Source: Escherichia coli (GTDB lineage: Bacteria; Pseudomonadota; Gammaproteobacteria; Enterobacterales; Enterobacteriaceae). Taken from it: a stretch of DNA of 64,000 nt. The number at the start of each line of letters is the position of its first letter. The stretch's first letter is position 1. Where the stretch lies: assembly GCF_045037415.1 (NCBI RefSeq), contig NZ_CP173440.1; one strand, 5' to 3'. Below, one piece after another: positions 30,001 to 36,000 of the stretch. A program made the position numbers.

Positions 30001-33000
30001 TTCTGCGCGAGGAGGTAAGTAATATCGAGCGGCAGATTAAAGCACATATCAAAGCCAGCCCTGCACTGAGGCGTGATTATACACTGCTGAACTCAATTAA
30101 ATCGGTTGGTCCCCAGTTGGGGATGCATATGCTGGTCGAGCTTCGCAGCCATAACTTTGCATCAGCTGAGCAGGCTGCCGCCTTTCTGGGCGTGGTGCCG
30201 ATCGAGAAACGCTCAGGCACATCGGTCCGGAGCCGACCGCGGATGTCGAAAATCGGCCCCCCTCAGTTGAGAGCGAGGCTTTACATGTCCGCCCTGTGCG
30301 GAAAAATCTACAATAAGCGAATGCGTAATATTTACGATGAGATGTGCCTGCGGGGTAAACCTAAAATGGTAGCCATTGGCGCGCTGATGCGGAAACTGGT
30401 GCACTGGTGTTATGGCGTCCTGAAGACCGGAACCGTTTTTAATGACGAAGGTCTGAAACAAGTACTGTCAACCTGACTATACCTGGCTGGCATTAAACTC
30501 AAGGTAACGCTCACAGCAGTAAGTGAGCGCAGTCCGCTATGAGTGAAAAACGGAAGTTCGTAAAACGCAGACAATATCGAGGTGAGGCGTTTAACTGCAG
30601 GAAATCATCATCGACGAACAAACCTGTCTGCTCTTATGGCATAAGCCCCGGCCTTTAGTGGGCATCAGGGCTCTTTCTGCTTCAATTCATCGTGATGACC
30701 ACTTTGCCAGTATGTTGCTGGCTTTCAAAATATCGCCATGCTTCAACAGCATGTTCAAACTCGAATACCCTGTCTATAACCGGCTGAAGCTGACTTTTTA
30801 CCAGCGCCCGATTCATAGCGACAAAATCCTCGCGGCTGCCAACACTGAAAGGTCTTACAGTTGCGCCACTTTTGAACAAAGTCATAAAATCGACTGATGC
30901 ACTTCCCTGTGCAACAAAGCCCAGCAGAGCAATTTCCCCTCCCGGCGCTGCGGAGAGTAAAGACTGATTTAAGGTTCCCGGCCCGCCAATTTCCACAATA
31001 CGGTCAACCCCCCTGCCTTGTGTCAGTTCCCGGACTTTTACTGACCATTCAGGATAATGTCGGTAATTGATGACATGATCGGCACCAAGCGCCGACAATA
31101 GCTGTGCTTTTACATCATTTGACGTTAACGCAATAACGCGTGCCCCCATGATTTTGGCGAACTGCACCGCAAACAGTGAGACTCCACCTGTGCCCTGGGT
31201 AAGCACAGTCTCTCCCGGTAATACAGACCGCGACTGTTGAAGGCTGTTCCATGCTGTAACTGCTGCGCAAGGGAGAGTGGCAGCCTGTTCCCAGCTCAGG
31301 TAATCAGGTACAGAAACCAGAGACTCTTCATCAACCACTTTGTATGAGGTTAACCATCCATCGGCCTGAGTGCCATAAGTTCCTCTCCCTGCAGCGGCAT
31401 CCCGTGCTCCACCAAACCAGTGAGGAAAGAAGGTTCCCACAACCCGATCCCCCTTTTTAAACAGGCCCACAGAATCGCCTGTAGCCACGACCTCACCAGC
31501 CCCGTCCGATAAAGGGATCAGCCCGGCTTTAGGGGTTAATGTGCCTGTTCCGTACAGAATGGCCAGATCACGATAATTAAGACTACAGGCGCGGACCTTT
31601 ATCAGAACCTGATTACGCCCGGGGACTGGCTGCTGTTCCTCAATTAACTTCAGTCCTTGTAAACTTCCGAAACTCTCAAGTCGATAGCTATGCATATTGC
31701 TCTCTTTGGTTTTGTTGAGTACGTCGCTACCTTAAAATTTTTTTACTGGATGTAGAATGTCTGAAAAGACATTATTACTGACTAACCGTCCATGAAAGAG
31801 GGAAAAAATGGATCCTCTCGATGATGTATTTGCTGCTATGCGTCTCAAAAGCGCACTTTATTCACGCCTTTTACCGCATGCCCCGTGGGGGATAAGCTTT
31901 GTAAGAAGTGCTTCAATTCGCTTTGGATTCATGGTTTCTGGACATGGAATGCTTATAGTGGAAGGCGTTGAAAACTCCATTGAACTGCAGCAAGGAGATG
32001 GGTTCCTGGTGAAGCCTGAACCCTTTTTTCTCTGGTAGATAACCCTTCTACTCCAACACAATGGTGCGAAGATATCTTTGCTGAATGTTCAGGTAATAGT
32101 CTCAGTTTTGGAGGTGATGGCGAAGTGGCCAATATTCTCTGTGGCTATTTCTCCTTCGATACTACGGGAGCAGAACCGTTGCTTTCACTGCTGCCCTCAG
32201 TCGTGGTCATCCCCTCTGACGCTGCCCGTTCACCACTTTTGGGCCTAGTGGGAGCGAAGCTGCAAAATGCGGCATCTGACTTTTTTGAACTGGATCTGAA
32301 TAAAAATTACTCACCTGTGAAATGGTTACCATAGCGGTTACCCATTGATGATTCAGGGAGTTGGGATGTTGTTACAGGAGAAGGCTTTTGATGACAGGGA
32401 CGAGTGGCATTTGCTTGCTGACGAGCTTTCCCTGCTACCGGGGATGACCGATACGGGGCGTCTGGGATTTGCCCTTCAACTAAAATTCCGACAGGTTCAG
32501 GGCCATTATCCCGACTCTGTACACGATTTCCCTTCCGGCATTGTGCACACCATCGCTGAGCAGGTCGGATGCGCTTCCGTATCCCCTGAAAACTATCCGT
32601 TTCAGGGACGGCAGGCTCAGCGACACCGACACCGACAACATATTCGTCGCTATCTGGGTGTCAGACTCCCCAGTAAAGCTGATATCGCACGACTCAGCGC
32701 CTGGTTAACCGAATTTATCCTCCCGTTAAATCCGCAGGCCGTACATGGCAGTGAACTTGTTACTGACTGGTGTCAGGAACAGCTGATTGAACGGCCAGCC
32801 ACCGAGCACCTGGAGCGGATTATACGTTCAGCTGTACACCAGTTCGAAACAAAGCAACAAAACACCATATTTACCCGACTTTCACTCGACAGTAAGGTTG
32901 CCATCAATCATCTACTGTCTGCCGAAGAACCGGGCGCTGCCCAGGTAAACGAAGTCACATTCAGCGGCCTCAAAGCTGACCCGGGAAGGCCCAGTCTGGA

Positions 33001-36000
33001 GAATGTCCTTTCCGTCATCGCCCAACTAAAATGCCTTGATGGTGTTGCGCTACTGCCGAATATTTTTCAGGGCATATCTCCTAAATTCATCGTCCAGTTT
33101 CAACAACGGTGTGCCAGTGAATCGATCAGGGAGCTTCGTCGCCACCCTTCAGCGATCCGTTACAGCATGGTAGCTATGTTTTGCTGGCGTCGCCGCCAGC
33201 AACTGACCGATGCGTTGATTGAGATGTTGATGGTGCTGATCCATAATCTCGGTACCCGTGCTGAAAAAAAGGTCGATAAAAAGCAGTTTGCGGCGTTTAA
33301 AAAGGTCAGGGGCAAGGCGCGTCTGCTATTCCGCATGGCCGAGGCTACCGTTGACCAGCCAGACGGTGTCATAAAGGAAGTTGTCTATCCTGTTGTCTCA
33401 CAGAAAATGCTGCAAAATCTGGTCGATGAATTCAAAACTCTAGGGGTGAATACTGAGCAGGAAGTACATGAATCCATGCGTTCTTCTTACGGTAACCACT
33501 ATCGCAGGATGTTGATGCCGGTACTGGACCGGCTTGAGTTTCAGTCCGGCAATGCCCTCTATCGGCCCGTGATTGATGCTATCCAGATTATTAAGGAAAA
33601 CAGGACCAGCAATCAGCATTTCTATGCGGTGGGTGATGTGCCTGTTGACGGTATTATTCAGAAAAAATGGCGGGATGTTGTCATCGTACAGAGCCAGTCC
33701 GGTGAAGAGCGTATTAATCGTACCAACTATGAAATTTGTGTATTACGGGCTTTACGCAAAAGTCTGCGCAACAAAGAAATCTGGGTCACCGGCGCGGATC
33801 GCTATCGTGATCCGGCAGAAGATCTCCCTGCCGATTTTGCCACTAACCGCGCATATTATTATTCCCTGTTGCAGGCACCCACTGATGCGACAACCTTTAT
33901 TAATCAAATCAAAGACAGGATGCGCCAGTGGCTCGGTACGCTGGATAATGGCCTGCCGGATAATCCCAGACTTCGCATCAGGGAACAGGGGAAAAATCGT
34001 ATCCACCTGACGCCGCTGGATAAACAAACGGAGCCGCCCAACACCGCAGCGCTGAAGCAGGAGATTGGCCAGCGCTGGGCCGATCTGGAGTTGATAGACA
34101 TACTCAAGGAGGTGGATTTACGGGAACATTTCTCGTGGTTATTTCGCACATCGGCCAGTCGGGAAGTGCTGGAGCCTGAGGTATTACAACGCCGCCTGTT
34201 GTTATGTCTGTTTGGCCTCGGAACGAATGTAGGGCTGAAACGTATCGCCAGCCAGCAACCCCGCGTCAGTTATGATGAATTGCGTTACGTTAAACGGCGG
34301 TTTATTCAGAAAGATGCTTTGCGCTCAGCGATTTCACATATTGTGAATGGTATTTTCAGAATTCGTCAGCCCGCTATCTGGGGGAATGCGACGACATCCT
34401 GTGCGGCGGACTCCCGAAAGTTTGGTGCTTATGATCAGAATCTGATGACAGAATGGCATGCTCGCTATGGCGGGCGCGGCGTGATGATTTACTGGCATGT
34501 GGATACGCATTCCACCTGTATTTATTCACAATTGCGCCGCTGTTCCTCATCGGAGGTGGCCGCCATGATGGAAGGTGTTCTGCGTCACTGTACCGACATG
34601 GAAATTAACCACCAGTATGTGGACAGCCACGGACAAAGTGAGGTGGCCTTTGCGTTCAGTGATGTGCTGGGGTTCGATCTATTGCCGCGCCTGAAAGCGA
34701 TCGCCCGACAGAAACTGTATGTGTGTGAAAAGGAAGATACATCGTTGTACCCGCATCTTACGCCGATTTTAACCCGGGGGATCGACTGGGAGCTTATTGC
34801 ACAACAGTATGACGAGATAATCAAATATACAGCGGCACTTAAAACCGGAACGGCAGAACCCGAGGCCATATTACGACGATTCACCCGCAATAACATTCAG
34901 CATCCAACCTATAAGGCACTCGCGGAGCTGGGCAAAGCGATTAAGACCATCTTCCTCTGCCGTTATTTACACGATGAGTCACTGCGTTGCGAAATTAATG
35001 CGGGTCTCAACGTCGTGGAAAACTGGAACAGCGCCAATAATTTTATTTTTTATGGCGAACACGGAGAATTTACCAGCAACCGGCCTGCGGATCAGGAACT
35101 GTCGATGCTCTCTTTGCACCTGTTGCAAATCAGCCTGGTCTATATCAATACCCTGTTGATTCAAAATGTGCTGACAGAGCCGGCCTGGCAGCAGAGAATG
35201 ACAGAAGAAGACTGGCGTGGTCTGACCCCATTGATATACCACCATGTTAATCCGTATGGACGTATCGAGCTGAACATGGATCAACGGCTGGCGCTGGCAG
35301 CCTGATGGTGCCCAGAACCGTTCGGTTTCGTACACAGGGTCTTAATACTGTCCGAAAGTAAGTGAAATTACTTTCGGATATGCATTATGATTCGTACATC
35401 CTTTTCGGACGGAAATTTTCATCATGTCACGCGTTTTTGCCTACTGCCGTGTTTCTACACTGGAGCAGAACACGGAAAACCAGCGCAGGGAAATAGAAGC
35501 TGCTGGTTTTACCGTCAAATCCCAGAGACTGATTGAGGAGCACATCAGTGGTTCGGTTGCTGCCAGTGAGCGGCCTGGATTTACCCGTCTGCTCGACAGA
35601 ATGGAAAATGGTGACGTGCTGATTGTCACTAAACTGGATCGTCTTGGACGAAATGCTATGGACGTTAGGAAAACGGTGGAACAACTAGCAGCGTCCGGTA
35701 TTCGCGTACACTGTCTCGCGCTGGGCGGCGTGGACCTCACCAGCGCGGCCGGCAGGATGACCATGCAGGTGATTTCGGCCGTCGCTGAGTTTGAGAAAGA
35801 CCTGCTGATTGAGCGTACACATTCAGGGATTGCAAGAGCCAGGGCTTCGGGAAAACGCTTCGGGCGTCCTTCGTCACTCAATGGGGTACAGCAGCAGGTG
35901 GTGCTGGAACGTCTTAACGCTGGAGTAAGTATTGGTCTATTGCCCGTGAGTTTAGCACTACACGGCAGACCATTCTTCGCGTAAGGAAAGCAGCCGGAAA

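What the first reader, a model, noticed from the sequence alone, without database searches (positions are those of the whole stretch)
31808..35984. Tn3-family unit with co-directional tnpA-res-tnpR, resolvase HTH out of frame, inserted into an AraC-type gene
tnpA (986 aa) is followed on the same strand by a res-like palindrome and a resolvase whose C-terminal HTH is frameshifted. Terminal IRs were not recognisable by eye. An AraC-type regulator fragment ends about 10 nt before tnpA, consistent with insertional disruption. The co-directional tnpA-then-tnpR order differs from classic Tn3 and Tn21 layouts.
Basis: seen in the sequence. Interest (0 to 1): 0.3.

Follow-up and report, generated by a model that had tools for sequence, protein, structure and literature searches.

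The report
Decayed Tn3-family transposon carrying lactonase
This is a 4.9-kb Tn3-family transposon on a Klebsiella virulence plasmid, with an apparently intact transposase, a resolvase broken by a one-base deletion and a quorum-quenching lactonase gene as cargo: ordinary mobile DNA whose genes are already annotated, though its gene order is typical of a little-described branch of the family.

Summary
The sequence features are real, but the unit was drawn wrongly. The window is a pLVPK/pK2044-type Klebsiella pneumoniae virulence plasmid. The true element spans 32242-37098 (4857 bp): a 39-bp IRL, tnpA (985 aa), a 118-bp res, tnpR, uilS (a UilS-family acyl-homoserine lactonase) and a 39-bp IRR.

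The ends were found by comparison with an intact 6374-bp relative in Pantoea agglomerans. That relative has the same tnpA-res-tnpR order, 39-bp IRs, a 5-bp target duplication and an extra pqaA gene.

The co-directional order is therefore native to a clade found in Pantoea, Mixta, Tatumella, Yersinia and Klebsiella, with more distant relatives in Methylomonas and Rhodocyclaceae. It is not a rearrangement.

The resolvase frameshift is a single missing G between 35936 and 35937. RefSeq already annotates it, and other Klebsiella copies lack it.

The "AraC fragment ending 10 nt before tnpA" is an ORF artefact. AraC-type homology stops at 32241, and the rest of that ORF is transposon sequence. The two flanks differ (AraC-type fragment on the left, serine-recombinase fragment on the right) and there is no target duplication, so a simple insertion is not preserved.

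Verdict: an ordinary, decaying Tn3-family element. Low interest.

The parts
31808..32241 (+). Left flank, not part of the transposon. N-terminal (Cupin_6) fragment of an AraC-type regulator gene, cut by the IRL. In this window it is also split by a 1-bp deletion after 32019.
   Evidence: Pfam Cupin_6 hits on both ORF pieces reach profile position 156 of 183. Some GenBank records call it an AraC family regulator. The 1-bp deletion relative to pK2044 is shown. Homology to the Pantoea element starts at 32242.
32242..32280 (+). IRL, 39 bp: GGCCTAGTGGGAGCGAAGCTGCAAAATGCGGCATCTGAC
   Evidence: This is the exact start of homology with the Pantoea element. It matches the IRL/IRR of Pantoea, Mixta, Tatumella and Plautia-symbiont copies with 2-4 mismatches. 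The same outer motif GGCCCAGTGGGAGCGAAGCT lies upstream of tnpA in distant relatives.
32348..35305 (+). tnpA, Tn3-family DDE transposase, 985 aa from the ATG (986 aa from the TTG at 32345). Apparently intact.
   Evidence: PF01526 plus PF13700. NF033527 at 1026 bits, covering profile positions 4-953 of 954. RefSeq CDS WP_077250518.1. It keeps all 237 alignment columns that are at least 97% conserved among 99 relatives.
35306..35423 (+). res: 118-bp resolution site with three candidate resolvase-dimer sites at 35309-35334, 35349-35380 and about 35390-35411.
   Evidence: Half-site cluster. The region is conserved across nine copies. It is also conserved with res-tnpR modules attached to unrelated tnpA genes or to none. 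A promoter-like site lies at 35362-35391.
35424..36040 (+). tnpR pseudogene, a small serine resolvase. The catalytic domain is in frame to 35936; a missing G between 35936 and 35937 puts the HTH out of frame.
   Evidence: PF00239. The alignment with eight relatives pinpoints the deletion. tblastn splits the match into residues 1-170 and 172-192. RefSeq annotates it as 'recombinase family protein, frameshifted'.
36147..37007 (+). Cargo gene uilS: UilS-family N-acyl-homoserine lactonase (alpha/beta hydrolase), 286 aa.
   Evidence: NF047920 at 524.9 bits against a cutoff of 400, covering 285 of 285 profile positions. RefSeq gene name uilS. It lies inside the IR-bounded unit in Pantoea and Klebsiella copies.
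37060..37098 (-). IRR, 39 bp (reverse complement GGCCCAGCGGAAGCGAAGCTACAAAATGCGACATTTGAC). It matches the IRL at 33 of 39 positions.
   Evidence: This is the exact end of homology with the Pantoea element and with the ATCC 13883 and L034 copies. The sequence is shown.
37099..37320 (-). Right flank, not part of the transposon. A frameshifted fragment of another serine recombinase gene that lacks its C-terminus and is cut by the IRR. An IS5-family pseudogene follows.
   Evidence: Translation of the minus strand. RefSeq annotation 'frameshifted; incomplete; missing C-terminus'.

Best explanation
Window 32242-37098 is one copy of a Tn3-family replicative transposon with the layout IRL-tnpA>-res-tnpR>-cargo-IRR, sitting in a pLVPK/pK2044-type Klebsiella virulence plasmid.

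By analogy with the family (inferred, not tested here):
- TnpA binds the 39-bp IRs and makes a cointegrate with a 5-bp target duplication.
- TnpR then resolves the cointegrate at the three-site res that starts right after the tnpA stop codon, and probably represses its own promoter inside res.

The state of this copy:
- The transposase and both IRs look intact.
- A 1-bp deletion removes the resolvase's DNA-binding HTH, so the copy should be resolution-defective. It is either immobile, or would leave cointegrates unless RecA or a related resolvase acts in trans.
- The cargo is uilS, a quorum-quenching lactonase. A second ancestral cargo gene, pqaA, has been lost.
- The original target duplication is gone. 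The left flank is an AraC-type gene fragment and the right flank a recombinase fragment, so a flank was rearranged after insertion.

The unusual gene order is best explained by module shuffling. A gamma-delta/Tn3-type res-tnpR module is joined to a tnpA arm that reads inward from its IR.
For: Plasmid identity: the window is 100% identical over 5 kb to pLVPK, pK2044 and about 600 other plasmids.

Boundaries: homology to the Pantoea agglomerans CFBP8774 plasmid starts and stops exactly at 32242 and 37098.

Intact relatives:
- The Pantoea copy has 39-bp IRs (37 of 39 match), intact tnpA, intact 193-aa tnpR, pqaA, uilS and a 5-bp duplication AAAGA.
- A Mixta copy has the duplication AATAA, and that genome holds three copies.

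Gene order: the same tnpA-about 120 bp-tnpR order occurs in all eleven copies with TnpA identity of at least 91% that extend far enough, and in several relatives at 62-72% identity.

Protein families: Pfam and NCBIfam hits.

Transposase integrity: no change at any of the 237 highly conserved columns.

Frameshift: located by alignment, annotated by PGAP and absent from ATCC 13883 and the 162-kb plasmids.

Module shuffling: the res-tnpR module is 84% identical at the protein level to modules next to a divergent, unrelated (23% identical) tnpA in a Vibrio furnissii plasmid. Similar modules occur in pYV and in an Enterobacter plasmid. The DNA homology begins at the left edge of res.
Against: - This copy has no target duplication (TTTTG vs CCATA).
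- The IR tips are GGCC, not the GGGG usual in the family. The nearest named relative has a GGGG tip.
- No sigma-70-like promoter was found between the IRL and tnpA.
- Nothing about transposition, resolution or lactonase activity of this copy was or could be tested here.
- The assignment of the three res subsites, and of which one is the crossover site, is by analogy only.
Confidence: 0.88

Rival explanations
1. One reading: a tnpA-res-tnpR element ending at 35984, simply inserted into an AraC-type gene, with the downstream hydrolase being plasmid backbone.
For: The AraC-type fragment is truncated at the element's left end. No IRs appear within 31600-36400.
Against: - The IRR lies at 37060-37098, beyond uilS.
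- uilS travels inside the IRs in Pantoea, in ATCC 13883 and in a 162-kb Klebsiella plasmid with different flanks.
- The right flank is a recombinase fragment, and the flanking 5-mers differ.
Confidence: 0.04
2. A chance juxtaposition of two unrelated things: an IS-like tnpA element lying next to a plasmid multimer-resolution resolvase, rather than one transposon.
For: - The res-tnpR module has close relatives (84% protein identity) that are not next to this kind of tnpA.
- DNA homology to those relatives begins right after the tnpA stop codon.
Against: - The same tnpA-res-tnpR-cargo block is bounded by one pair of IRs with 5-bp duplications in Pantoea and Mixta.
- It recurs in at least seven genera.
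- No IR lies between tnpA and tnpR.
Confidence: 0.03
3. The resolvase is functional: the frameshift is a sequencing error, or is bypassed by programmed frameshifting.
For: Only one base is missing, and the downstream HTH frame is still open to 36040.
Against: - The same sequence occurs in hundreds of independently sequenced complete plasmids, including pLVPK and pK2044.
- All eight relatives encode the protein in one frame.
- The site (GGT/CTA) is not a homopolymer or a known slippery motif (seen directly in the sequence).
- A sister Klebsiella lineage shows the reciprocal decay, with tnpA frameshifted and tnpR intact, which fits neutral erosion.
Confidence: 0.03

Closest known systems
Tn5501 and derivatives ('Tn3000' TnpA subgroup of Lima-Mendez et al. 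2020, PMC7157771)
   Same: This is the nearest named transposase I could identify. It shares 45.7% identity over the full length with the TnpA of an Aeromonas caviae plasmid element that carries blaNPS-1, a RelE/ParE-type toxin-antitoxin pair, tnpR and tnpA. That combination matches the paper's description of Tn5501.6. Both have a Tn3-type DDE transposase, a serine resolvase and a res site upstream of tnpR.
   Different: - Tn5501-type order is res-tnpR-tnpA, with the tnpA 3' end abutting a GGGG-tipped IR. Here the order is IRL-tnpA-res-tnpR, with the tnpA 5' end next to a GGCC-tipped IR.
- The resolvases are only 37% identical.
- No toxin-antitoxin pair is present here.
- Identifying the Aeromonas element as Tn5501.6 is an inference from the paper's description, not a sequence comparison with its accession.
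Tn3 / gamma-delta (Tn1000)-type res-tnpR module, as in a Vibrio furnissii plasmid transposon and the resolvase next to the ars genes of Yersinia enterocolitica pYV (from memory, Tn2502)
   Same: The resolvase is 84-85% identical at the protein level. The 118-bp res is conserved site for site, including spacing to the tnpR ATG. The half-site TGTCCGAAA resembles the gamma-delta res half-site (from memory).
   Different: In the Vibrio element, tnpA is divergent from tnpR (the classic Tn3 layout) and only 23% identical to the tnpA here. Here res follows the stop codon of a co-directional tnpA, so res cannot hold the tnpA promoter.
Tn21/Tn501/Tn1721 (TnAs1) layout
   Same: tnpA and tnpR are co-directional, and res lies upstream of tnpR (PMC7157771).
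   Different: The order is reversed: res-tnpR-tnpA there, tnpA-res-tnpR here. TnpA identity is only about 23.6%. A TnAs1-family tnpA is present elsewhere in this same window for comparison.
Tn4651/TnXax1-type elements
   Same: tnpA lies at one end and reads inward from its IR (from memory). Cargo lies between the resolution module and the other IR.
   Different: Those elements use the TnpS/TnpT tyrosine system and rst. TnpA identity to a Xanthomonas citri plasmid transposase, assumed rather than verified to be of this type, is about 26%.

Membership tests
Tn3 family of replicative transposons | Large Tn3-type DDE transposase (about 950-1025 aa; PF01526 / NF033527) | tested here: met
   PF01526 at E 2.3e-132 plus DUF4158. 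NF033527 at 1025.7 bits against a cutoff of 500, covering profile positions 4-953 of 954. All 237 highly conserved columns are retained.
Tn3 family of replicative transposons | Terminal inverted repeats of about 38-40 bp | tested here: met
   39-bp IRs lie at 32242-32280 and 37060-37098, matching at 33 of 39 positions. The Pantoea copy matches at 37 of 39. Homology between independent copies ends exactly at the tips.
Tn3 family of replicative transposons | Canonical IR sequence features (GGGG tip, inner TAAG) | tested here: not met
   The tips read GGCC(C/T)AGTGGGAGCGAAGC in the window and in relatives down to 62% TnpA identity. One Pantoea copy has GGGG. This is a common feature of the family, not a strict criterion.
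Tn3 family of replicative transposons | 5-bp target-site duplication | tested here: inconclusive
   The window copy has TTTTG vs CCATA, so it is not met. The pK2044 copy is the same, and L034 and L011 also lack a duplication. The Pantoea copy (AAAGA/AAAGA) and a Mixta copy (AATAA/AATAA) meet it. The feature therefore holds for the element type but is lost in this copy.
Tn3 family of replicative transposons | Cointegrate-resolution module (site-specific recombinase plus res) | tested here: inconclusive
   The module is present: PF00239 resolvase and a conserved three-site res. In this copy the resolvase is frameshifted before the HTH. It is intact in relatives.
Tn3 family of replicative transposons | Replicative transposition through a cointegrate; transposition immunity | not testable with these tools
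   This needs mating-out and cointegrate assays.
Classic Tn3 or Tn21 module layouts | tnpA and tnpR divergent around res (Tn3), or res-tnpR-tnpA (Tn21), as described in PMC7157771 | tested here: not met
   The order here is IRL-tnpA-res-tnpR. The review text is quoted.
'Tn3000' TnpA subgroup (Tn5501 relatives) | TnpA clusters with the subgroup in a phylogeny | not tested
   I have only pairwise identities: 45.7% to a Tn5501.6-like TnpA, against 22-26% to TnAs1, Tn3, ISPa38, TnAs3, Enterococcus, Bacillus and Xanthomonas transposases. No tree with reference sequences was built.
UilS-family acyl-homoserine lactonase (cargo gene) | Score above the NCBIfam equivalog cutoff over the full length | tested here: met
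   NF047920 at 524.9 bits against a cutoff of 400, covering 285 of 285 positions. PGAP names the gene uilS. Enzyme activity was not tested. UilS was characterised in Serratia marcescens (PMC11633161).

The most novel reading that the evidence does not exclude
The element represents an uncatalogued Tn3-family lineage. Its defining traits would be GGCC-tipped 39-bp IRs, a tnpA that reads inward from the IRL, and a res placed after the tnpA stop codon. In that arrangement the resolvase cannot repress tnpA as it does in Tn3, so transposase control must work differently.

The lineage has spread pqaA-uilS cargo between plant-associated Erwiniaceae, Salmonella pESI and Klebsiella virulence plasmids.

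In the hypervirulence plasmids, the copy with an intact transposase and a dead resolvase could still form unresolved cointegrates and so contribute to plasmid fusions.
Probability: 0.2. Interest if true: 0.4.

Novelty: new member of a known kind. Interest (0 to 1): 0.2.

Why it matters
The main value is better annotation. It gives exact boundaries and a parts list for a transposon present in about 600 sequenced Klebsiella virulence and hybrid plasmids.

It shows that the plasmid's uilS lactonase gene is transposon cargo. The same cargo is shared with Pantoea plasmids and Salmonella Infantis pESI.

It also documents that the tnpA-res-tnpR order is a stable, transposition-competent layout in one branch of the Tn3 family. 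That is a small addition to the known modular variety of this family. It does not open a new question.

Tried and rejected
- An inverted-repeat search restricted to 31600-36400 gave only chance-level pairs. The real IRR lies outside that range.
- A search for the IRL 33-mer with up to 3 mismatches found no partner, because the IRL and IRR differ at 6 positions. The IRR was found only through the Pantoea relative.
- The weak pair 32247-32267 / 36184-36204 lies inside uilS. I rejected it as chance.
- A search for the missing AraC C-terminal HTH in the window, using the PROSITE pattern, found nothing.
- An uninterrupted copy of the AraC-type gene was not found in 72,556 plasmids. The empty site could therefore not be reconstructed.
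- Literature searches for a name for the element, for the tnpA-then-tnpR layout and for the IR string found nothing specific.
- The 'Tn3 transposon' said to fuse pVir and pKPC plasmids in PMC10714771 could not be tied to this element from the text. The E. coli transconjugant plasmids from that study do carry this element unbroken.
- Source names for 120 TnpA homologues gave only generic 'Tn3 family transposase'.
- ISfinder and TnCentral could not be queried.
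Full report
**What the region is**

The window around the finding is 100% identical over 5 kb to pLVPK, pK2044 and about 600 other Klebsiella (and some E. coli) plasmids. In pK2044 the genes are annotated as follows:
- NAD(P)-dependent alcohol dehydrogenase
- cupin domain-containing protein
- Tn3 family transposase
- alpha/beta hydrolase

RefSeq records of E. coli transconjugants add three further annotations:
- 'recombinase family protein, frameshifted' between the transposase and the hydrolase
- the gene name uilS for the hydrolase
- a second, truncated and frameshifted recombinase pseudogene, followed by an IS5-family pseudogene

**Checking the observation**

The 986-aa ORF (985 aa from the ATG at 32348) is a full-length Tn3-type transposase. 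It matches PF01526 at E 2e-132 plus DUF4158, and NF033527 at 1026 bits against a cutoff of 500, covering 950 of 954 profile positions. Aligned with 99 relatives, it differs at none of the 237 columns that are at least 97% conserved. I see no sign of decay in it.

More half-sites of the same kind lie on either side. Of the 21 matches to TGTCCGAAA (1 mismatch allowed) in the whole 64-kb window, four lie in 35326-35411.

The resolvase ORF (PF00239) leaves its frame after codon 171. An alignment with eight relatives shows a single missing G between 35936 and 35937. The window reads AGTATTGGT-CTATTGCC, K. pneumoniae ATCC 13883 reads AATATTAGTGCTATTGCC, and the Erwiniaceae copies read AGCATTAGCGCTATTGCC. 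The HTH ([15 protein letters not shown]) continues in the next frame to 36040.

**Finding the ends**

An inverted-repeat search inside the finding's coordinates gave nothing convincing. A tblastn search of plasmids with TnpA found a 91%-identical copy in a different context, in Pantoea agglomerans CFBP8774. That copy has:
- tnpA
- an intact 193-aa resolvase
- a PqaA-family gene
- the same hydrolase gene
- 39-bp inverted repeats at both ends that match at 37 of 39 positions
- the 5-bp direct repeat AAAGA flanking the ends

BLASTN of the window against that locus gives two blocks, 32242-35979 (86.7% identity) and 36128-37098 (93.2%). They start and stop exactly at the repeat tips.

The window element is therefore 32242-37098 (4857 bp). 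Its IRL is GGCCTAGTGGGAGCGAAGCTGCAAAATGCGGCATCTGAC. Its IRR at 37060-37098 matches the IRL at 33 of 39 positions. The hydrolase gene is cargo, and the Klebsiella version lacks pqaA.

**The gene order is native**

A scan of one genome per species found 22 loci. Every copy with TnpA identity of at least 91% that extends far enough has tnpR about 120 bp downstream of tnpA on the same strand. These copies come from Pantoea, three loci in Mixta mediterraneensis, Tatumella, a Plautia stali symbiont, Yersinia pekkanenii and K. pneumoniae ATCC 13883.

One Mixta copy is bounded by both IRs and the duplication AATAA.

Relatives at 62-72% identity share the IRL motif GGCCCAGTGGGAGCGAAGCT 100-125 bp upstream of tnpA. 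They come from Methylomonas and from Burkholderiales, Rhodocyclaceae and Accumulibacter metagenome-assembled genomes. Several have a co-directional, though different, serine resolvase downstream. The order tnpA-res-tnpR is thus a trait of a transposition-competent clade, not a local rearrangement.

**Where the modules come from**

The transposase is only 22-26% identical to the following:
- named families: TnAs1, Tn3, ISPa38 and TnAs3
- unnamed Tn3-family transposases on Enterococcus, Bacillus and Xanthomonas plasmids

It is 45.7% identical to the TnpA of an Aeromonas caviae element. That element's content (blaNPS-1, a toxin-antitoxin pair, tnpR-tnpA) matches the published description of Tn5501.6, which belongs to the 'Tn3000' subgroup. 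That element has the usual arrangement: tnpR upstream, and the tnpA 3' end against a GGGG-tipped IR.

The resolvase and res, by contrast, are close to modules found elsewhere, at 84-85% protein identity:
- next to a divergent, unrelated tnpA (23% identical) in a Vibrio furnissii plasmid
- beside the ars genes of a Yersinia enterocolitica pYV plasmid
- in an Enterobacter plasmid

The DNA similarity starts at the left edge of res, just after the tnpA stop codon here. The simplest reading is module shuffling, which is well known in this family (PMC7157771). A gamma-delta-like res-tnpR-cargo arm has been joined to an arm in which tnpA reads inward from its IR.

One consequence (inference) is that res cannot contain the tnpA promoter, so the resolvase cannot repress tnpA as it does in Tn3. 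A promoter-like site inside res (35362-35391) could serve tnpR. No consensus-like promoter was found upstream of tnpA.

**State of this copy**

The transposase and both IRs look intact, and the resolvase is dead. The frameshift is shared by the pLVPK-type plasmids but is absent from other Klebsiella copies:
- ATCC 13883 has a 205-aa intact tnpR, with its tnpA truncated at the 5' end.
- A 162-kb IncFIB/IncFII plasmid carries a full copy, 99.4% identical to the window's, at another site. There tnpA is frameshifted and tnpR is intact.

This reciprocal decay fits neutral erosion of an element that is no longer moving.

The flanks of the window copy do not match. On the left is the Cupin_6 part of an AraC-type gene, ending at 32241 with TTTTG. 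On the right is a frameshifted serine-recombinase fragment reading toward the IRR, starting with CCATA. A simple insertion into the AraC-type gene is therefore not what is preserved. A deletion, inversion or recombination next to one end must have followed (inference).

The ORF that seemed to bring the 'AraC fragment' to within 10 nt of tnpA runs on by chance through the IRL. In this window it is also split by a further 1-bp deletion relative to pK2044.

**Cargo**

The hydrolase scores 524.9 bits against the UilS equivalog model (cutoff 400) over its full length. UilS is a urea-induced acyl-homoserine lactonase characterised in Serratia marcescens (PMC11633161).

Salmonella Infantis pESI carries a remnant of the same transposon. 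It consists of 90 bp of tnpA fused to pqaA-uilS, with the match ending 13 bp short of the IRR tip. An Enterobacter plasmid carries uilS at 93% protein identity.

**Novelty**

All genes, and the frameshift, are already annotated in RefSeq. The boundaries are not. I found no name for the element in RefSeq product names, in 120 homologue names, or in the searchable literature.

The 2020 review of the family describes tnpR as either divergent from tnpA or upstream of it. This layout is neither. Because I could not query ISfinder or TnCentral, I file it as a new member of a known kind. The layout and the GGCC IR tips are lineage traits worth a line in a catalogue, and interest is low.

Noticed in passing
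window 32019/32020: The window lacks one G that pK2044 has inside the cupin/AraC-type fragment (GCCTGA-ACCC vs GCCTGAGACCC). The 175-aa annotated ORF is thereby split into two pieces. A few PLSDB plasmids (for example NZ_CP065555.1) also show the match in two pieces, each annotated as a cupin CDS.
   Followed up: partly
window 37099-38282: To the right of the IRR lies a frameshifted serine-recombinase fragment that lacks its C-terminus and reads toward the transposon. An IS5-family transposase pseudogene with an internal stop follows. The recombinase fragment is cut exactly at the IRR tip.
   Followed up: partly
window 59834-62800 (- strand) and neighbours: A second, unrelated Tn3-family transposase (23.6% identical) belongs to the TnAs1 family. 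In identical E. coli plasmid records it sits next to IS26 and aph(3')-Ia. This suggests the window comes from a hybrid virulence-resistance plasmid. No adjacent resolvase was detected.
   Followed up: partly
L034 (K. pneumoniae plasmid NZ_CP082797.1) 2856-7706: A full copy of the same transposon, 99.4% identical, sits at a different site in a 162-kb IncFIB/IncFII plasmid. It shows the reciprocal decay: tnpA frameshifted near residue 709 and tnpR intact. It also lacks a target duplication (AAATA vs TTTAT).
   Followed up: partly
L027 (K. pneumoniae ATCC 13883 scaffold2) 8001-11842: This copy has a 5'-truncated tnpA and an intact tnpR. Its IRR abuts a DMT-transporter gene that is 91% identical to window 27883-29094 but in the opposite orientation relative to the transposon. 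This hints at an inversion or a separate nearby insertion. It remains unexplained.
   Followed up: no
L029 (Salmonella Infantis pESI, NZ_CP047882.1) 6001-8709: A remnant of the same transposon lies next to the yersiniabactin genes. It consists of 90 bp of tnpA (residues 809-837) fused directly to pqaA-uilS, and the match ends 13 bp short of the IRR tip.
   Followed up: partly
L003 (Yersinia ruckeri pYR10) 6001-6039: A solitary 39-bp match to the IRL (3 mismatches) has no transposase of this clade beside it. It may be a solo IR or the edge of a deleted copy.
   Followed up: no
L006, L007, L009 (Mixta mediterraneensis Marseille-Q2057): Three copies of the element family occur in one genome with different cargo. 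One has a perfect 5-bp duplication, which suggests recent activity in this host.
   Followed up: partly
L012-L024, 35-45 nt upstream of tnpA: Distant relatives share a conserved TATAAT-like box between the IRL and the tnpA start. It is a candidate tnpA promoter. It is not obvious in the Enterobacterales copies.
   Followed up: no
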